In this document: in pieces, positions 3,540 through 28,166 of the stretch
How the letters are laid out: each line of letters starts with the position of its first letter
Numbering within the stretch: the first letter of the stretch is position 1
Virus record (IMG/VR): IMGVR_UViG_3300033075_000957
Span: 128,001 to 156,166 of that record
Reading direction: 5' to 3' (one strand)
Length of the DNA stretch: 28,166 nt
Source: a virus
Lineage: Duplodnaviria > Heunggongvirae > Uroviricota > Caudoviricetes
The notes under the pieces: generated by a model
The model's input: only the letters and a program-made list of their open reading frames with translations
Databases searched by the model: none
What the model was told of the DNA's origin: nothing
Position numbers and translations under genes: made by a program

Positions 3540-5407
3540 AATTTATTCCAAGATTCGCAATAACATGCAACTAAAATAATTTTTAATTCTTCATTAGTCA
3601 GTTTGCTTATACCCGAATTTTCTGAATATTGTTTAAATAATTCTGCGAAAGACAAAGAAATAGACGGTACGAAAGAGTCGAGGCACGCAGCAATAGTTTC
3701 ATCATCCGCGTCTATTAGTTCGGGATTTACGGTTGGATACAGTAGACATTTAGCATCAAAAATTTCTTTCTTTTGTTCATTAGTTAATTGCCGAGCGTCT
3801 TTAACACCAAAAGATTCCATGAGGGTAGACTGAACTAATTTATCGACGCGATCATAGATTTTACTAGCCTGAACTATATTTACAGTATTCGCCCTAACCA
3901 CTCTAGGAGTCTTATCACGAGAACCAACGGGCCTACCTCCTGATTTACCACTCTGCTTTTCTTTCGCCATATTTTCGGATTGTATTTTTTTGATCTCATG
4001 CTTTTGTTGCATTAGCAACAGTGGATTATGGAACGGGCTTGCCTTTTGCGGCATTTCCTCCTTAGTACGAAGTGCCTCGTCCTCATCAATGCGAGCACGC
4101 TCTACAGAAGAATCTTCTTTAAGCAGTTCACGCATACGATCGTCCGATAATATATTACGATCTACTAAATCACGAATAATATTCCAATAAATCTTTTCAT
4201 CAAAAAGATTACTATTATTAAAGGTTACAGTTGGATTATTTCTAAAACCTGTCGCTTTACGGATGATAGTAAATTCGGAATCTAACCATTTCGCAATAGC
4301 AATTCTACAATTGATTATGCGAGAAATAAAATCTTTTAAGCCAATCGGTTTGCCGTTTTCTGCACTTCCATCTTTGTAAAGCTGAATACCTAAACCAAAT
4401 AATATTGGTTCAATACGTTCTTCAAATGCAGCAATTTTATCAATCGGAGGAAAGAATTCTTGATAATCAATCGCACTATCCCAAATGATTTCTCTCTTTC
4501 CTCCGTTTGTATTAGCCTGTGTGATACCCGCTAATTTTTGACCTAATACCGGAGAGGGCATTAGTTGATTTTTATGATCGCCAAGCCGCCAAAGTGCAGT
4601 CGGGCACGAGGCTCCGTCTAACATTGTTATCTTTGCAGTCTTAACCTTTTGATTATATAATAAATCATCAAATATTGAATAAAGCGTAGGTACGGCCCAA
4701 ATTGAAGTGTCATCTTTTTTACAGTATGCTACATAAACATCATTTTCAGGAAGTGGAATAAAAGTTGGATTTCCGTTACCAGTCTTATTTTCAATAGCGT
4801 CCCTAACTTCTTTAGGGTAGGTGGAATAGACCTGTTTTTCAATTTCAGTCGTTGGTGTCCGTTTGTGACCGTTGCTGGTGGACGGTATCTTAATTCCATA
4901 GCGTAATTTTTCAGCCATGGTACCATAAAAATCACCAATAAGCTCTATATTTCCGGGATTGTAGAAGAAATATCGAATAGGAATCTTGTTACCTCGAAAT
5001 TTACCATATTTACGCTGTAAAACAACGTTATTAGATTTTAAATACCACCGTGCAAATTGCTCAACTCGGTCAAAAATATCAGCACGCTTTGACCAAGAAT
5101 CGTAAAAGATCTGTGTACTATCTTCTGTAGCGTGGATAGATAAACCATCAATGGCTAAATCTACCTGTAAATCAACAATTGATCTAACTACACCATTACG
5201 CTTATAGAAAGCGTCGGCCATAAGCATGATTTTTTGCTGGTCTTGCTGGGTACGACAGTCCGGAATAATTTCAGCAGGACGAAAAGCCTCATAGGATTCA
5301 CGACCACCCTGCGAACGAACATACGTATTAGAGGTGCTGTCGTAAAAATTTGCAGCAGCCGCATTCTGATATGTCTCTTGGGGTTTTGAAATATCCTTTT
5401 TCATCAT
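3536..5407 (-). CDS. Portal protein
   Basis: 623 aa, between TerL and the protease. Portal-like segments include FYKRNGVVRSIVDL, KKDDTSIWAVPTLYSIFDDL and LVDRNILS. Confidence 0.85.
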   Translation of the reverse strand: MMKKDISKPQETYQNAAAANFYDSTSNTYVRSQGGRESYEAFRPAEIIPDCRTQQDQQKIMLMADAFYKRNGVVRSIVDLQVDLAIDGLSIHATEDSTQIFYDSWSKRADIFDRVEQFARWYLKSNNVVLQRKYGKFRGNKIPIRYFFYNPGNIELIGDFYGTMAEKLRYGIKIPSTSNGHKRTPTTEIEKQVYSTYPKEVRDAIENKTGNGNPTFIPLPENDVYVAYCKKDDTSIWAVPTLYSIFDDLLYNQKVKTAKITMLDGASCPTALWRLGDHKNQLMPSPVLGQKLAGITQANTNGGKREIIWDSAIDYQEFFPPIDKIAAFEERIEPILFGLGIQLYKDGSAENGKPIGLKDFISRIINCRIAIAKWLDSEFTIIRKATGFRNNPTVTFNNSNLFDEKIYWNIIRDLVDRNILSDDRMRELLKEDSSVERARIDEDEALRTKEEMPQKASPFHNPLLLMQQKHEIKKIQSENMAKEKQSGKSGGRPVGSRDKTPRVVRANTVNIVQASKIYDRVDKLVQSTLMESFGVKDARQLTNEQKKEIFDAKCLLYPTVNPELIDADDETIAACLDSFVPSISLSFAELFKQYSENSGISKLTNEELKIILVACYCESWNKL

Positions 5408-11260: not shown

Positions 11261-13267
11261 TTATCTTCTTTTACGAATTGCAGTAAATACTGAGCCGTTT
11301 AATACATAAAATACACCAAAATTATATACACCAATACCACCGCTACCTTCAACTAAATCACTAAATCCAGCAGAGACATACGTCATCAAATTGCTTGCCG
11401 TAAATCTGTTATCCCAACTTCCTTTTCTATTAGCAAGTGCTCGTAAAATAAAGCTTTCTTCACCAGAAGCGGTGGATAATCCAAGCGAACCGATATATGA
11501 GACATCATCGCGACTTACAGCATCCCATACGGGCAGACTACCGGTCCCATAAACAGAACTTGAATCACCCAATCCGTTCATTAAGTGCTGCCAGTTGTAA
11601 CTAGCAGTATCGGTAAACGATACATACGAACCGGAAGGTGCTTGACGCCAGAACGTATTGCCGGAAGATAGATAGGAGCCCTGTCCAAAACCAATCACGG
11701 TTTTATAAGCTACGCCTTTAGTATATGCCGTATCGCCAGTAGCGTAAGGTTCAATCAAGTAATTTTTGACAAACTTGAAATTATTTTCTGGCAACTTAAT
11801 ATAAGGTGATCCGTGTACCGTTTTTGTAACACCAAACGAAACGGACGAGCCTGCGGGATTTCGGCTGCCGATCCAATCGTATACAATATTGCCACTAACT
11901 AGAACAGGATGTGTAGTATTATCCCACGGCCAACTAAATTCTGAAAATGACAGGGCGATGCAGTTTCCTGACGATGTTCCGGCTCGCGTCAGAATATTAT
12001 TGCTCATGTTCATGCTGTTGATACGTCCAGCACCGATACCTTCGCCGCGAGCATTATTACCATCATAACTTCCGGTTGCACCAAGAATATTAGAAGGTTT
12101 CATGATCAGATTTTTAATAATATCCGCTTGATGGAATCGAATAAACGAATTGTTTAATGTATCTGCATAAACATCGTTGTAATTATTTTGATCGTGACCA
12201 AAAGGAATTGCGAATCCAGCCCGCATGATAACGTTGCCACTTACAAGATGGCCCGAACCACCACGCAACTGAATGCCACCATAACTTGGTTGATTAATAA
12301 TGTTGCCGCGAAATTTAAACTGATCATTATACGATCCAGCTACATAAAACGCGTGATTTCTCGTGCTACCGGGTGATCTACCAGAAGGATCATAAGGATA
12401 ATGTCCAGCCTTATCGACAACACAATCTATTATTTCAGCATTGGCCACACCGCCAAAATAACACGCAGTAGAATCCTGACCGTTCAATGCGTAAATCTTT
12501 TCAAACTGACATCGATTTAACAATAGATTGTAGTATGGGTCTTCGCTGTCCGAATTAATCGCACCTTTAAAATATGCAAAACGACAATCGTCAAGAACGT
12601 GAATTTCAGTTGGATCAGAACTGGTATAAAAACGAATAGCCGCCGAATTCAAATTAACTACGTTATCAAACTCGTATGAAACATAAGCAGGATCACGACG
12701 AACACTATGCCAATCAATTGACTTAAACGCCACATTGCTTTTAGTACTGGGAGAACCGAGTAAAATCAGCGATGTCTCGGCACAAGTAATTTTCGGTCGA
12801 TCGCCTGTAACCGAGCCGTACGCGTCAACAAGAGCGGGATATTGAGCCGATAAACCTCTGAACGGCCAGCTTTCATGAATATTGGTTTGTAATTTAACAC
12901 CGGTATTAAATACCGAACCGCGTTTGAGTAAAAACCAGAATGATCCGGAGGTTCCGTGAGTTTGATATACCGCATCCATTGCGTATTCAGGACTTAACCA
13001 TCCAGAAACAGACGAAGAAGGAAGTAATGGATCAGAACCGATGGTGCTGTCGCCGTAGTTATAAATTAAACCTGTAGCGTGACCGTTATCCGGGTCCACA
13101 TAAACTATACGCGTTTGAATCGCACCGCTTGACGGATAAAATACGGCCCAACCACCAGACATAGTAGGAAATACCTGACTATAATTCGGAGTCATTTTTT
13201 GAGCCGCAGTAAAACTAACCGGCACAGCACGGTTAGGGGCAGAAAATTTGGGCAGATATTTAATCAT
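11261..13267 (-). CDS. Right-handed beta-helix (pectate-lyase-like) virion protein
   Basis: Repeating Asn-ladder rungs (FRGNII, VSGNVI, IIKNLI, MSNNIL, VSGNIV) and HAFYV/GIQLR. Confidence 0.7.
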   Translation of the reverse strand: MIKYLPKFSAPNRAVPVSFTAAQKMTPNYSQVFPTMSGGWAVFYPSSGAIQTRIVYVDPDNGHATGLIYNYGDSTIGSDPLLPSSSVSGWLSPEYAMDAVYQTHGTSGSFWFLLKRGSVFNTGVKLQTNIHESWPFRGLSAQYPALVDAYGSVTGDRPKITCAETSLILLGSPSTKSNVAFKSIDWHSVRRDPAYVSYEFDNVVNLNSAAIRFYTSSDPTEIHVLDDCRFAYFKGAINSDSEDPYYNLLLNRCQFEKIYALNGQDSTACYFGGVANAEIIDCVVDKAGHYPYDPSGRSPGSTRNHAFYVAGSYNDQFKFRGNIINQPSYGGIQLRGGSGHLVSGNVIMRAGFAIPFGHDQNNYNDVYADTLNNSFIRFHQADIIKNLIMKPSNILGATGSYDGNNARGEGIGAGRINSMNMSNNILTRAGTSSGNCIALSFSEFSWPWDNTTHPVLVSGNIVYDWIGSRNPAGSSVSFGVTKTVHGSPYIKLPENNFKFVKNYLIEPYATGDTAYTKGVAYKTVIGFGQGSYLSSGNTFWRQAPSGSYVSFTDTASYNWQHLMNGLGDSSSVYGTGSLPVWDAVSRDDVSYIGSLGLSTASGEESFILRALANRKGSWDNRFTASNLMTYVSAGFSDLVEGSGGIGVYNFGVFYVLNGSVFTAIRKRR

Positions 13268-22260: not shown

Positions 22261-22677
22261 ATGGATCGCAAGATTGTCCTGTTGAGCGTGTTGGCGTTTC
22301 TGTGTCTGTGCTGTGGCCGTGCCCCATCAATCGAGAAAGCAGTCAGCCCGCAATTGCTACATGCTCTGTGGATGGTTGAGTCGGGCGGCAAAGATAATCC
22401 TCCGGATGGTGATGGTGGTAAGGCGATCGGCCCGTATCAGCTATGGGAGTGCTATTGGAAGGATGCTATTGAGCATGACCCATCGATCGGTGGTACCTAT
22501 CAGGACTGCCGAAAGAAGGAGTACGCCGAGAAGATCATCGTGGCGTACATGTGCCGATACGCTCCGAAGAACGCGACGGCGGAGCAGATTGCGAGGATAC
22601 ATAATGCAGGTCCGCAGGGCTGGAAAAAGAAAGTTAGCCTGAAATATTGGGAAAAAGTAAAGAAAAATTTGAAGTAA
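22261..22677 (+). CDS. Lysozyme-fold muralytic enzyme, i-type/destabilase-like, with N-terminal signal or anchor
   Basis: Catalytic VES, GPYQL..YWKDA, YM.RY and ARIHNAGPQGW. The N-terminus is hydrophobic (MDRKIVLLSVLAFLCLCC) and the SD is AGGAG. Confidence 0.8.
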   Translation: MDRKIVLLSVLAFLCLCCGRAPSIEKAVSPQLLHALWMVESGGKDNPPDGDGGKAIGPYQLWECYWKDAIEHDPSIGGTYQDCRKKEYAEKIIVAYMCRYAPKNATAEQIARIHNAGPQGWKKKVSLKYWEKVKKNLK

Positions 22678-23237
22678 CGACTAATCCCAACGTCGGGCCA
22701 CTAGGAATAGTGGTCCGAACGTTTCAACGGTACAGAAAGCCATCCCTCCATCAAGGTAGCCCCTTAGTATCGCCGATCGCATACTAGGGCACGGTCGCCG
22801 GTGGGTATGGTAGAATGGTGATATAACTCTTCTGTATCGTGTGGCTTGGGAATCGCCACGAACCCAATAAAGGGGTAATATGGACCAGCATCACTGGTAT
22901 GGCATGCTGCCACTTCTATGCGAACTACCGGGGTTCGTCTATAGACAGCACAGTAGCGGGATTCCGCCCGTATACCCTAACAAATACCAAACGCAAGGTT
23001 CGGGTTTTGTTCCAACCACTTATACCTATGTGGAGAAACGCCACTAGCCACTATGATAGGGGATTATAAAAAACAACTTGCGGTGTAACCGATTCGCTTG
23101 CGGGTAGGGGAGTGTATACGTCGGGTGCCAACTGGCACCAACCCACCCCGCAACCGCTACCAGTTGTAACGGGTTTCTTGCGTGGTGTTTGTTTTTAGTT
23201 TGTGGTTTTATACCACAGAAAGGATTGTGTTACTTTT

Positions 23238-23651
23238 ATGACGACAGCAACAATTCAGAGGCAGAAGTTTTCTCCTGCCGAACTCCGTGAACGCATCGCG
23301 GAGTTGCGTAAGGTGCAGCGTTCCAACGCCAAGCGGCGTGGTCGTGCTCCTGCTGTATGGCACGCTCTTTTCAATGGGCTGAATGTCGGCGAACAGATCG
23401 TCGTTCAGACCAATGCGAAGAATGTGGATGGGAATGGCGATAAGGTGTCGCTGCCCAAGTTCATGTCCGTGAGGAATTGGCTCCAGCGTCGGGCCAAGGT
23501 CGATGGTCGTATGTTCCTTGTGTTCGGTGCCAGCGATGCCGATGGTAACGGCGAGATGCTGGTGATCCGCTCCGAAGATGATCCCGAGAAGATCGTCAGC
23601 GAGGACACTGAGGACACCGATGAATCGGACGACGAGTCCGAGAATCAGTAA
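23238..23651 (+). CDS. Hypothetical basic protein with acidic tail (possible nucleic-acid binder)
   Basis: GAAAGGA SD; RRGR..W..LF..LNVGEQIVV core; D/E-rich tail. Confidence 0.75.
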   Translation: MTTATIQRQKFSPAELRERIAELRKVQRSNAKRRGRAPAVWHALFNGLNVGEQIVVQTNAKNVDGNGDKVSLPKFMSVRNWLQRRAKVDGRMFLVFGASDADGNGEMLVIRSEDDPEKIVSEDTEDTDESDDESENQ

Positions 23652-23906
23652 CTAACCGGGGGATAGGTAATATCTTCCGTCCCCCGTGTTAGGAATGATG
23701 CGGGGTTTCTTTTTACCTGCGGTACGCTATAAACGCATGCCGCAGGTTTTGCCCTAGTTGCAGGCTCCGTTCCTTAGCGAATAACAGAACCTATAGAAGT
23801 ATAGGTCATACGTCTATCGCCCCAAAAATAGCGGATACCAACCGGGCGTTCCCTGTGTCTATAATAGGACACTGGGAAATTTGTCAATCTTTCAGAAAGG
23901 ATCGTC

Positions 23907-24077: not shown

Positions 24078-24375
24078 CACTAACCAGTGGCGATAGGCCA
24101 TTCCTATTATCTCATACCTATGGTGGTCGGGTTGAGATTATGGCACCACTAGGTGGCTACAGCCTGCGATTCCGTAACCAATCGGAGCGATGAAAAGTGT
24201 GGCGGTGATCCTCAGCCCAATGAGGTAGAATAGACGCCGATATATTCGTAACATTTCTCGGCAAGCGTAGTCTACTACGACTAGAGTGTGGAGCGTCATG
24301 AACAGGCCCGATGGTCTGTGACAGTAGCGGGCGATACCCGAGGAAGGAAACCTGAATGGTTTTTTTTGTTGCCCG

Positions 24376-24564
24376 AACGATACGGGGGAAGTATAGTCTA
24401 GATGTTCCCGGATATCCGGGTTTAGAAAAACATCTGGAAACTATGGACGAATCGCCATAGCAATATTGTGGTAGTCAGGACCGAATTGAGTGCTGGCCTA
24501 AACTCTGTAACCACAGAGGGTCATGTGCAATTCACTGGAATCCATCTATTACTTCCGTATCGTT
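24376..24564 (+). ncRNA. Unknown structured RNA, copy 1
   Basis: Closing stem AACGATACGG/CCGTATCGTT. Core AATATTGTGGTAG (24462-24474) and GAATCCATCT (24538-24547) are shared with copy 2. Confidence 0.65.
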
Positions 24565-24579: not shown

Positions 24580-24651
24580 GGGCGATTAGCTCAGCGATAG
24601 AGCAAGGTGCTCATAATACTTAGGTCGTTGGTTTGAATCCAACATCGCCCA
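24580..24651 (+). tRNA. tRNA with CAT anticodon (Ile2 or elongator Met), no encoded CCA
   Basis: Acceptor GGGCGAT/ATCGCCC+A, D-arm GCTC/GAGC, anticodon loop CTCATAA, T-arm GTTGG-TTTGAAT-CCAAC. Confidence 0.88.
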
Positions 24652-24665
24652 TTAGGGAGAATGTC

Positions 24666-24878
24666 ATGTTTCAAGTTGGCGATCGTGTGCAGGCGAACAT
24701 TTCTGTGCTTCAAACGGATAACTCCATCCGGGTTTACGAGAATCGGACGGGCAAAGTGGTTTCAACTTTGCCGCCGCCTTTGGTAATGGTTCAACTCGAT
24801 GTACCTATTGATAGTGGTACTGAATACGAGATGAGAACGGTGTATACCCGTGTAGAGAATTGCTCAATTTGCCTCTAA
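24666..24878 (+). CDS. Small SH3/KOW-like beta-barrel protein, paralog 1
   Basis: FQVGDRV...TGKVV...VMVQLD; GGGAG SD; clear paralog at 27228. Confidence 0.8.
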   Translation: MFQVGDRVQANISVLQTDNSIRVYENRTGKVVSTLPPPLVMVQLDVPIDSGTEYEMRTVYTRVENCSICL

Positions 24879-24900: not shown

Positions 24901-24931
24901 TTGTCCACAATTGTGGATAACTTGTGGAAAA
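24901..24931. promoter_or_regulatory. DnaA-box cluster 1
   Basis: TTGTCCACA (24901-24909), TGTGGATAA (24912-24920, perfect) and TGTGGAAAA (24923-24931). Confidence 0.7.
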
Positions 24932-25282
24932 CCACCCTTAATTGGGGTGTGCTTAATATATGGGACACATATTCCCATCCCAGCATATATCCAACCATCC
25001 CTTCCCTATCCCCCTTTCTCTTCTGTCTTCTGTATGTAATGAGGGTACTTTTGGTATAAAACCTCATTATTTCGCTAAAAACGAGGTTTTAGAGCAATCT
25101 GCTCCCTCATTGATCCCCTGTCTAGGGAATCAATTAAACTGTCTGATTGAATATTATCAATCAAGAAAACAGCGAACACCACCCACAATTAAATACGTCC
25201 ACAGATATGCGGTATGACTGTAAAGGCCAATTCCGCAATTGGAGTGCAGATAGGGTCCGATAACAAACGTAAATCACTAATT

Positions 25283-25998: not shown

Positions 25999-26770
25999 GC
26001 GGACAGAAATGTCCGCAATCAAACTAAATCAGTGTGAAGCAAGAGAATAGGCCCCTCTTGCCAGATCCGAGCTATACTTCGTACACTGTTTGTCTGTGCT
26101 GGGTTACACCGGCATGGACAATTTAGCTCCGCAAGTCGGAGATAGGGACACTGGCAGTTCGTCTAGCAAAGACCCGAAATTAAAACTTTTAAGACGCGAA
26201 TGATTCCCGTAAGGGATTATAGGTTAGCACATACTAGATCGCCCGCAAGGGCGAGAGTGCTGTCTGATTACAGATAGAAGTATCTGTTGTCGGATTCCTC
26301 GGCTATAGCCGAGCTTTCGAAGTATGCAAAGGTAATGAGGGTCTAGCCCCTCAACGCCGTATAGACCGTAAGGTGAGGGCGTTTAGGTATAAGCCGAAAG
26401 GCCAGAGTAATACCACCTTTCATACTTCATCTGTCGTGGCGATAACTTCAAGACGATAGGTTTAAGGAGTTGTTGGTTTCAGAGAGTATATGTTCATAAC
26501 CAACCTCTGCACACGAGGATACTCGCATAACCGTGTGTATATTATTAGCGAGTTGCGATTACGGATAGTCTGGTCTTAATAATTTGCAAATTAAGGCTGG
26601 CATACACCAAAAACACTGTCGTATCCGTAGTCTAAGTTTTAAAATACTGCACAAACAGGTGGTGCTGTTGTGGAGTATGGACAGTTACCTAGATGGTTTA
26701 GACATAGGCCATCGAGGGTTCCATCGTTGTTCTCCCCTTGCCTACGCGATAATTTCAACTAGGCAAGGTT
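25999..26770 (+). ncRNA. Large structured non-coding RNA candidate
   Basis: Continuous helices with GNRA loops (GCGGACA-GAAA-TGTCCGC, TCCC-GTAA-GGGA, TCGCCC-GCAA-GGGCGA, ACC-GTAA-GGT, GCC-GAAA-GGC), a multibranch domain, and no credible ORF. Confidence 0.65.
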
Positions 26771-26935
26771 TGACGGTACAGAAGAGTGATAGGGCATAAA
26801 GGATACTACCAATCGATAGAGTATCTAGTCGTGCCAAAAGATAATATTGTGGTAGGTGCCGGACTAGCATCGATTCTCCCTAGGTAAGATTTCGAGCTAG
26901 CGAAGCGAACCCATCTTTACTTTTCTGTATCGTTA
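26771..26935 (+). ncRNA. Unknown structured RNA, copy 2
   Basis: 19-bp closing stem 26771-26789/26917-26935 with four G-U pairs. Core AATATTGTGGTAG (26843-26855) and GAACCCATCT (26907-26916). Confidence 0.65.
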
Positions 26936-27227
26936 TAAATGAAACAATGATAGGTCCACGTATCACCCTCCATTAATGGCACGTTTGTGTCTTGGGATAT
27001 CCCTGTTGGATCGGTGAGAATGGATAGTCCGACAATAATAAAGGACAATCTGACAATGCTCTAGACATTAATATGGAGCAGCAAAGTCAGACACTAAATC
27101 AGGTACTCTGACGCTTTGCGAAATTAACTAGTCCCAAAGCGTTGGAAATCCTGCTATCGTTTTTTGATAAAACGCTGGTTTTGTTCGGCCTTGTGACCGA
27201 GGCCCTTAACGATATAAGGGGACGAAT

Positions 27228-27455
27228 ATGTCATTCAAAATTGGCGAGCGTGTTTCCGCCGATATCTCTGTAGCACAACCTACTGGTCCTAATCGTATCT
27301 ATTACAATAAAACAGGGAAGATCATCGAGGTTCGGGATAATTCGTTGGTGCAGATACGTTTTGATGAACCAATCGATGCGGGAACAGAGCGTGAAATAAG
27401 AACTGTTTATGCGAAGGCAAGGAATTGCGTTTACTGTTTGAAGGGAGAAGCCTGA
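27228..27455 (+). CDS. Small SH3/KOW-like beta-barrel protein, paralog 2
   Basis: 33 of 69 ungapped identities to 24666..24878 (hand count); AAGGGG SD. Confidence 0.82.
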   Translation: MSFKIGERVSADISVAQPTGPNRIYYNKTGKIIEVRDNSLVQIRFDEPIDAGTEREIRTVYAKARNCVYCLKGEA

Positions 27456-27456
27456 T

Positions 27457-27519
27457 AAGCAGTTTATTTCGGCAAAATTATACACTAAAATACTTTTAGT
27501 TCGAATCCAGCATCGCTCA
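27457..27519 (+). pseudogene. Decayed tRNA / tRNA 3' remnant
   Basis: 27499-27521 matches the 3' end of the intact tRNA (24631-24653) at 20 of 23 nt, while the 5' half no longer pairs. Confidence 0.55.
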
Positions 27520-27899
27520 TTGAAGAGAGAAAGAGATCGCCACATGGTCCCTTATGAAAAGATAGGCGTGACGGAGGAAGAGTACATTAGGCTGACTCTT
27601 CTGTACCGTTCAGGGCGTTATTCCTTTCCTCTTGGGGGATAGGATGCGTGAATAGTCTACAATGACTACAATGGGTCTAGGTCGAACGCTGTTTTTAACG
27701 AAATAATGACCACGCTGTTAGGGGATAAAATGGTCAATCCCCTATTCTAATAGTGCTTTCAAAAAAGCCTATTTTTACAGCACCAAATGAACTTCTGACC
27801 CCCCTCCGGATCAACAAAAAGTATACAAGAAGACTAGTGTATCCAGATTTGATCACTTTTCACACTTCCCACCCTCTATAACCATGACAGAGAGGTAAG

Positions 27900-27983
27900 T
27901 TATCCACATTCCTTTTTCGAGGAAAAGTGGCGTTTTTAGCGTAAAAAGGGCGTTTTTGGGGATTTATTCACATATTATCCACA
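27900..27983 (+). promoter_or_regulatory. DnaA-box cluster 2
   Basis: TTATCCACA (27900-27908), TTATTCACA (27964-27972) and TTATCCACA (27975-27983). Confidence 0.7.
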
Positions 27984-28166
27984 TTTTCGTCAAATATTTA
28001 AGACAATATTCAACCAACCAGTTGAACATCCCTCCCCACTCCCTCCCCTCCCTCCCCTTCTCCTTACTCTTATAGATATAGAATGCTTATTATTACGCTA
28101 ATAATGAGGTTTTTCACTGTTTTTGGCCCTTTCACCGCGTGGTGAAATAGATATATCAATTCAGAT

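What the first reader, a model, noticed from the sequence alone, without database searches (positions are those of the whole stretch)
25999..27227. ~1.2 kb ORF-poor region folding into back-to-back helices: candidate large ncRNA
Seen in sequence: there are five GNRA-capped stems. A multibranch domain is closed by GAAGTATG-C-AAAGGT (26319-26333) and ACCTTT-CATACTTC (26415-26428) and holds three sub-helices. Other stems lie at 26030-26088, 26091-26120, 26270-26287, 26298-26313, 26560-26629 and 26738-26767, with more to 27220. GCACACG (26509-26515) can pair with CGTGTGT (26532-26538) in a hairpin loop, a possible pseudoknot. Established knowledge: large ornate RNAs such as GOLLD and ROOL occur in phages near tRNAs. 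I cannot assign this one to a known class.
Basis: partly seen in the sequence, partly recalled or inferred. Interest (0 to 1): 0.75.

Follow-up and report, generated by a model that had tools for sequence, protein, structure and literature searches.

The report
Shuffled array of new phage RNAs
The 1.2-kb gene-free stretch of this uncultured 156-kb phage is real folded RNA, but it is a string of six or more separately folding RNA modules that related phages gain, lose and reorder, including an uncatalogued 240-base RNA with at least one proven and up to three pseudoknots; what the modules do is untested.

Summary
The structure is real: 26000-26999 folds at z -8.7, the five GNRA stems and the multibranch domain are present, and Rfam has no match. 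It is not one conserved large RNA. Relatives from Logan assemblies carry its parts separately and in other orders: 26158-26296 after a tRNA-like gene or another module, 26472-26713 behind a hammerhead module, 26946-27161 inside another closing stem, and a short hairpin (25999-26016) followed by four different modules. Two other modules share a 3x3 internal-loop arm with seven more closed domains of this clade. Most likely this is a cassette array of small RNAs cut from an early transcript and swapped by recombination, acting as protein-binding accessories or decoys (inferred; no expression data). The window has no hammerhead; some modules may be new self-cleaving RNAs. GOLLD, ROOL and YrlA tests failed. 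The scan has reported shuffled phage RNA arrays on other DNA before; these particular RNAs had no earlier match.

The parts
25999..26016 (+). M0: short hairpin with a GAAR tetraloop. Recurs in six relative loci, usually just after a gene end, and is followed by different modules (M1 here; M2, an M7-bearing or other closed domain, or a hammerhead elsewhere)
   Evidence: the motif occurs only at 26002 and 26273 in the whole 156-kb genome
26027..26157 (+). M1: about 130-nt multibranch domain (closing helix 26030-35/26149-54, four arms); no homologue found
   Evidence: (z -2.8); no hit
26158..26296 (+). M2: about 140-nt RNA of three hairpins plus a 5' arm; 96-97% identical copies in three relatives, after a tRNA-like gene or after M0
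   Evidence: z -4.2 for 26156-26315
26298..26313 (+). Hairpin ending M2; in relative L254 it is followed by a T run (terminator-like), here by only three T
26319..26428 (+).
   Evidence: (z -5.7 on both strands)
26431..26459 (+). H1: hairpin whose 13-nt loop core matches that of H2; the two flank M4 and occur nowhere else in the genome
26472..26713 (+). M4: about 240-nt RNA. 5' hairpin, H-type pseudoknot (26508-26553), 11-bp helix 26557-67/26622-32, hairpin with an invariant 6-nt loop (26659-64), and two further probable pseudoknot helices (26605-09/26660-64; 26615-20/26680-85)
   Evidence: against L206 4233-4465, 24 double changes, 4 single, 22 unchanged, 0 broken of 50 bp
26736..26768 (+). 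H2: hairpin with the same loop core as H1
26771..26935 (+). M6: domain closed by a 19-bp helix made of two inverted copies of the genome-wide ACGRTACRGAAR motif; last arm carries the UAN/AAY internal loop; paralogue at 24376-24564
   Evidence: (z -4.3)
26946..27161 (+). M7: four-arm domain with the same UAN/AAY arm; found separately in L205 (2200-2508) inside a motif-closed stem
   Evidence: (z -6.2 on +, -3.1 on -)
27166..27227 (+). Two small hairpins and the ribosome-binding site of the next ORF
24376..24564 (+). Paralogous closed domain (same closing motif, same 13-nt core, same last arm) just before tRNA-Met
24580..24651 (+). tRNA with CAT anticodon; a 3' remnant of a second copy lies at 27499-27524, intact in L084

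Best explanation
[quoted passage not shown] Shown: it is non-coding, folds on the + strand, and its modules occur separately and in other orders in relatives; M4 is under selection for its base pairs; M6 and M7 share a closing stem plus internal-loop arm with other domains of the clade. Inferred: the array is transcribed by read-through from the upstream small-gene operon and cut into separate 100-300-nt RNAs (by host nucleases at closing stems and tRNA ends, by a hammerhead in relatives). Modules are exchanged by recombination at short shared elements (M0 hairpin, the ACGRTAC motif, tRNA ends). Least certain: the RNAs act in trans as protein-binding accessories, most likely decoys or inhibitors of host RNA-targeting defences, with the shared stem and loop as a common handle and the rest as variable cargo. 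My odds: array of separate modules about 0.85; processed into separate RNAs about 0.7; decoy or anti-defence role about 0.35.
For: L084 is 97% identical over 26498-26934 but has an unrelated 5' part with a hammerhead and a self-closed 200-nt domain inserted exactly after 26934. M2 stands alone in L205, L254 and L256; M4 alone in L206; M7 alone in L205, upstream of a hammerhead and 1.8 kb upstream of M2, the reverse of the window's order. M0 is followed by four kinds of module. M4: 50 of 50 pairs kept with 24 double changes; slid controls pair 17-23 of 50, cross-genome chimeras 29 and 35 of 50. All four single changes give or remove G-U pairs on the + strand. The UAN/AAY arm passes a strict pairing test in 9 of 15 closed domains against 0.4-4.4% of shuffles. 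The genome encodes 12 or more tRNAs, Ro60, an RNA ligase and a SpoU methylase, genes associated with RNA repair and counter-defence (established knowledge).
Against: No expression, boundary or processing data. M4 covariation rests on one diverged copy, with helices chosen by eye from both sequences; its second and third pseudoknots are invariant or nearly so and so are not proven. The arm motif was defined on the domains it was tested on. M1, M3 and H1 have no homologue. M2 copies are too alike to test (four compatible changes, one break). M7 has only 2 double changes and 2 non-pairs in 26 bp against L205. No target, host or defence system was identified, so the decoy role has no direct support. 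No sigma-70 promoter signal was found, but the phage's own promoters are unknown.
Confidence: 0.6

Rival explanations
1. One or more modules (M1, M2 or M4) are undescribed self-cleaving ribozymes that cut the early transcript, standing in for the hammerhead that relatives carry in the same array.
For: A type I hammerhead follows M0 within about 25-50 nt in L206 and L258, where the window has M1 and L254 has M2. Five relatives carry it. New ribozyme classes were found beside known ones in phage-linked settings (PMC6765202). M4 has invariant unpaired bases around short invariant helices.
Against: Descriptor scans for hammerhead, HDV-like, twister, pistol, twister-sister and hairpin cores give no + strand match in the region; a loose 5-letter hatchet word matched but is not diagnostic. 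In L206 and L084, M4 sits downstream of a hammerhead rather than replacing it. The hammerhead travels with its own 170-nt RNA, so it may belong to that module only.
Confidence: 0.2
2. The closed domains (M6, M7 and paralogues) are non-canonical Y-RNA-like partners of the phage's Ro60: a common handle bound by Ro60 and a variable effector module.
For: The genome encodes a full-length Ro60, about 40% identical to actinophage Ro-like proteins. Y RNAs are built as an end-pairing stem plus a variable module (PMC4201824). M3 and the 5' arm of M2 in relatives have a bulged C helix.
Against: The YrlA model finds nothing in this region. GNCGAAN0-1G occurs only at 26393, inside a GNRA hairpin. There is no T- or D-arm in the window modules. 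The Ro60 gene is about 123 kb away on the linear map (about 33 kb if the ends join), whereas known YrlA genes nearly all lie within 4 kb.
Confidence: 0.12
3. It is one large ornate RNA (GOLLD/ROOL-like scaffold or nanocage) with a variable 5' and conserved 3' domain.
For: Size, GNRA loops, closeness to a tRNA, overall z -8.7. L084 keeps 26498-27227 in order with a replaced 5' part, as GOLLD has a conserved 3' and variable 5' region (PMC12286853). A helix 26723-30/26944-51 spanning H2 and M6 is predicted in full-length folds of both window and L084.
Against: L205, L206, L254 and L256 carry M2, M4 and M7 apart and in other orders. The spanning helix gives way to M7's own closing helix when 26715-27170 is folded. 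L084's shared block is 97% identical, which is recent common descent. No GOLLD or ROOL model match.
Confidence: 0.08
4. The structures work as DNA or as cis-acting signals (replication, terminators, attenuators), since the array lies between two DnaA-box clusters and uses a genome-wide DNA motif.
For: The ACGRTAC motif lies mostly in ORFs (64 of 80) and its pairs often mismatch as A-C on the transcribed strand. The hairpin after M2 is terminator-like in L254. M3 folds equally on both strands.
Against: M2, M4, M6 and M7 fold better on +. G-U-compatible changes, GNRA loops and a covarying pseudoknot are RNA features. Modules of 140-240 nt are far larger than terminators.
Confidence: 0.07

Closest known systems
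Intergenic small-RNA cluster of Pseudomonas phage LUZ7, orf69-orf70 (PMC9163698)
   Same: A gene-free phage interval; in LUZ7 it yields several RNAs under 250 nt, one apparently by processing, with function unknown.
   Different: LUZ7's are overlapping late transcripts shown by sequencing. Here there are six or more non-overlapping structured modules in the early region, shown to shuffle, with no expression data and no sequence link tested.
Hammerhead-punctuated prophage and phage transcripts (Perreault et al. 2011, PMC3088659; Rfam RF00163)
   Same: Five relatives carry a type I hammerhead in the same array, which would cut a polycistronic early RNA.
   Different: The window and its genome have no hammerhead, and the cargo here is mostly non-coding RNA rather than genes.
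GOLLD (RF02032) and ROOL (RF03087) large ornate RNAs (PMC12286853)
   Same: Phage-borne, near tRNA genes, many helices, GNRA loops and pseudoknots.
   Different: Those are single chains of about 600-800 nt or more with conserved architecture. Here the parts travel separately and no model matches.
PeSL cassettes of T4-type phages (Arbiol et al. 2010, PMC2839356)
   Same: Short repeated stem-loop elements in hypervariable regions at which modules are exchanged by recombination.
   Different: PeSLs are promoter plus terminator units flanking ORFs. Here the repeated elements show no sigma-70 promoter and the exchanged units are structured RNAs.
Bacterial and phage Y RNAs, YrlA (RF02553; PMC4201824)
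   Same: End-pairing stem plus variable module; the phage encodes Ro60.
   Different: No Ro-binding motif at the 5' end, no tRNA-like arms, far from the Ro60 gene.
Phage RNA mimics of type III antitoxins (PMC3594212)
   Same: Precedent for a phage non-coding RNA that disarms a host defence; M4 begins with an H-type pseudoknot.
   Different: From my own knowledge those mimics are tandem repeats of about 36 nt; M4's pseudoknot is single, larger and embedded in a 240-nt fold, with no Rfam antitoxin match.

Membership tests
GOLLD | Match to the conserved 3' domain model RF02032 | tested here: not met
   none at E <= 10
GOLLD/ROOL-type large ornate RNA | One chain of 500 nt or more whose domains stay together in fixed order across homologues | tested here: not met
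   modules split and reordered; longest unit with covariation is about 240 nt
ROOL | Match to RF03087 | tested here: inconclusive
   no match, but the search rang in no control genome
GOLLD/ROOL-type large ornate RNA | Homo-oligomeric nanocage | not testable with these tools
   needs cryo-EM or mass photometry
Hammerhead ribozyme type I | CUGANGA and GAAA core with three stems and NUH site | tested here: not met
   absent from the window. Present in L084, L202, L205, L258 and, with one extra core base, L206 (scores below Rfam gathering cut-offs)
Other self-cleaving ribozymes (HDV-like/theta, twister, twister sister, pistol, hatchet, hairpin) | Class-specific core sequence and topology | tested here: not met
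   my descriptors are from memory and may miss variants
Self-cleaving ribozyme, any class | Site-specific self-cleavage | not testable with these tools
   needs an in vitro assay
Y RNA / YrlA | GNCGAAN0-1G near the 5' end | tested here: not met
   only at 26393 in a GNRA hairpin
Y RNA / YrlA | tRNA-like domain, match to RF02553 | tested here: not met
Y RNA / YrlA | Ro60 encoded in the genome | tested here: met
   (genome 30753-32363), but far from the array
Group I/II intron, RNase P, tmRNA | Catalytic-core or tRNA-like consensus (Rfam models, ARAGORN) | tested here: not met
   M4's 3' half has a P3/P7-like helix order, but by inspection the junction lengths and G-binding site do not fit
Phage intergenic small-RNA cluster | Several separate structured non-coding units in one gene-free interval | tested here: met
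Phage intergenic small-RNA cluster | Discrete RNAs detected in infection | not testable with these tools
   no RNA holder listed

The most novel reading that the evidence does not exclude
This phage clade uses a plug-in RNA system not yet described: a sequence-specific closing helix (the same motif that dots the whole genome in convergent pairs) and a shared internal-loop arm form a standard handle, by which many different RNA cargos are excised and loaded on one protein; and M4 is a new class of triple-pseudoknot catalytic or ligand-binding RNA.
Probability: 0.15. Interest if true: 0.85.

Novelty: new variant of a known kind. Interest (0 to 1): 0.5.

Why it matters
Large phages carry much unexplained non-coding RNA. 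This locus gives concrete, short, testable units: a compact pseudoknotted RNA with strong covariation that matches no Rfam family, and a family of closed domains with one shared handle and different cargo, in a phage that also encodes Ro60, an RNA ligase and many tRNAs. If the modules are defence decoys or new ribozymes, the array is an RNA counterpart of the small-gene anti-defence islands of phages. It also warns that ORF-free, hairpin-dense kilobases need not be single giant RNAs. Interest is limited by the few homologues and the lack of functional or expression evidence.

Tried and rejected
Rfam at gathering and E <= 10: only tRNA and a chance miRNA hit. BLASTN against cultured phages: nothing for the whole region, L084, M3 or M4. 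RNA runs: no RNA holder listed; this says nothing about expression. The search for related loci in IMG/VR with the downstream ORF, Ro60 and a 373-aa late protein found no relatives; terminase relatives are 37-48% identical and hold no match. Pattern scans for the M6 core, motif pairs, the H1/H2 loop, the pseudoknot, the M4 core (IMG/VR, JGI metagenomes, GTDB) and the M7 core (GTDB) gave only matches without the expected flanking structure; exact patterns would miss diverged copies. The rest of the 163-kb relative could not be searched by handle; 22 kb of it was read. Rejected: HDV-like reading of the pseudoknot (no room for P3/L3); FMN riboswitch, 5S loop E, SRP helix 8 and sarcin-ricin resemblances (short words only, pairing does not fit, judged from memory); a long-range pairing of 26861-67 with 27129-35 (M6 and M7 separate in L205). 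In one search the window row of the M7 closing helix was off by one base; one search corrects it, and that helix is left out of the M7 counts. Host not identified.

Full report
Setting. The window is the last 28 kb of a 156,166-bp IMG/VR virus record, 99% complete. Late genes (portal, terminase) run on the minus strand up to about 17.6 kb and early genes on the plus strand thereafter. The genome has 12 or more tRNA genes and encodes Ro60, an RNA ligase, SpoU, DnaE, RecA and DnaB. It has no close cultured relative: the terminase is 24-25% identical to the best cultured phages. The host is unknown.

Observation. The interval has no credible ORF, folds at z -8.7, includes the most structured tile sampled in the genome and has exactly five GNRA loops. 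The multibranch domain and the listed stems are predicted with high probability, except 26030-26088, which re-pairs in context. The suspected pseudoknot is a complete H-type with 8-bp and 6-bp stems; 2-3% of shuffles of such a segment contain one. Rfam gives no match, nor do the GOLLD, ROOL and YrlA models.

Relatives. Neighbouring proteins led to Logan contigs of a small clade. L084 is 97% identical over 26498-26934 and about 90% over 27023-27444, but its 5' part is unrelated and contains a type I hammerhead, and a self-closed domain of about 200 nt is inserted right after 26934. More distant relatives carry the window's parts one at a time. M2 (26197-26296) is 96-97% identical in L205, L254 and L256, where it follows a tRNA-like gene or the M0 hairpin. 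M4 has a diverged copy in L206 behind the hammerhead module. M7 lies in L205 inside a different closing stem, upstream of the hammerhead and of M2. M0 precedes M1 here, M2 in L254, a closed domain in L202 and L205, and the hammerhead in L206 and L258. Homology begins and ends at helix ends. M1, M3 and H1 have no homologue in anything fetched. The unit of inheritance is therefore the module, not the 1.2 kb.

M4. Anchored on invariant unpaired words, eight helices were compared between the window and L206: 22 pairs unchanged, 4 changed on one side (all to or from G-U), 24 changed on both sides, none broken. Sliding the 3' strands by 1-3 bases leaves 17-23 of 50 paired; mixing strands of the two genomes leaves 29 and 35. 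Two further short helices would make second and third pseudoknots; they are invariant or nearly so, so they are likely but unproven. The caveat is that this is one pairwise comparison with helices picked by eye. Pattern scans found no further copies in IMG/VR, JGI metagenomes or GTDB.

M6, M7 and the shared handle. M6's closing helix is built from two inverted copies of a motif that occurs about 87 times across the genome, alternates in orientation (65 switches in 86; shuffles 43 +/- 4.6) and forms close convergent pairs far more often than expected (13 against 2.3 within 200 nt). Its density is ten times that in distant terminase-related loci. Most copies lie inside ORFs and many pairs mismatch on the transcribed strand, so it is probably a DNA-level motif that intergenic RNAs use as a closing stem; there the helices extend to 19-26 bp with G-U pairs on the plus strand. 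Nine of 15 closed domains from the clade, including M6, M7, 24376-24564 and genome 2049-2226, end in an arm with a UAN/AAY internal loop flanked by helices (M6 has one extra base); shuffles pass the same test 0.4-4.4% of the time. Their other arms are unrelated. This looks like a common protein-binding handle on variable cargo (inference).

Mechanism. Shown: non-coding plus-strand structure, modular inheritance, selection on M4's pairs. Inferred: no sigma-70 promoter signal stands out in the region, so the array is probably read through from the upstream operon and cut into small RNAs; relatives have a hammerhead and tRNA ends that would do some of the cutting, and L254 has a terminator-like end after M2. 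Exchange at short repeated elements parallels PeSL-mediated shuffling in T4-type phages (PMC2839356). Rapid gain and loss in an early variable region, in a genome rich in tRNA and RNA-repair genes, is what conflict with host defences produces (established knowledge), and phage RNAs that mimic antitoxins are known (PMC3594212). I therefore favour accessory RNAs acting as protein decoys or partners, at about 0.35 for that last step. New self-cleaving ribozymes (0.2) and Ro60 partners (0.12) are the main rivals; one large RNA (0.08) and DNA-level or purely cis signals (0.07) fit less well.

Comparison and novelty. It works like a phage small-RNA cluster (LUZ7, PMC9163698) and, in relatives, like hammerhead-punctuated phage transcripts (PMC3088659). 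It fails membership tests for GOLLD, YrlA and the known ribozyme classes. Earlier notes of this scan describe shuffled arrays of phage RNAs on other DNA (unchecked), so the layout is not unique, while sequence look-ups found no earlier record of these modules in other genomes. The new elements are M4, the closed-domain family with its shared arm, and the link to a genome-wide motif. Verdict: real, new variant of a known kind, interest 0.5.

Noticed in passing
whole genome G000; window 3068-27610: About 87 copies of a 12-13-bp motif (ACGRTACRGAAR), one per 1.8 kb, on both strands, 80% inside ORFs, alternating in orientation with close convergent pairs; also in relative L205. Looks like a binding site for a DNA-acting protein; unexplained.
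   Followed up: partly
L084:39-275, L202:4634-4867, L205:2534-2755, L206:3860-4107, L258:54-289: Type I hammerhead always followed by the same uncatalogued 170-nt structured RNA; absent from G000. The L206 copy has one extra base in the catalytic core.
   Followed up: partly
L084:812-1000: Self-closed four-way domain with two T-loop-like hairpins inserted after M6; no homologue or Rfam match.
   Followed up: partly
window 22673-23200, 23766-23837, 24096-24266: Further non-coding segments conserved and rearranged in L202, L204, L205, L206 and L258; probably more RNA modules of the same array system, no Rfam match.
   Followed up: no
window 27499-27524: 3' remnant of a CAT-anticodon tRNA that is intact in L084 (1755-1828); the window lost its 5' part together with an 80-aa gene.
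   Followed up: yes
window 24666-24878 and 27228-27455: Two paralogous 70-75-aa proteins ending in a Cys-x-x-Cys motif, with no Pfam or PHROG family; one more homologue lies behind a SprT-like gene in L096.
   Followed up: partly
window 24905-24931 and 27892-27986: Two clusters of DnaA-box-like 9-mers and a repeated 24-28-nt motif (25063-25090, 27691-27709 inverted, 28086-28113) flank the array; conserved in relatives.
   Followed up: no
L205:3328-3399 and 4204-4275; L258:1482-1553: tRNA-like genes with an atypical anticodon region that ARAGORN did not call in the loci scanned; M2 follows one directly.
   Followed up: no
L086:9611-9845 and 12579-12696 (genome 29611-29845, 32579-32696): tRNA-like sequences on either side of the Ro60 gene score weakly with the YrlA model (E 0.07 and 0.8, far below cut-off; controls ring too); possible true Y RNAs of this phage.
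   Followed up: partly
L086:3450-3670 (genome about 23450-23670): Tandem 6-bp repeat encoding an Arg-Ser run at the end of a small ORF.
   Followed up: no
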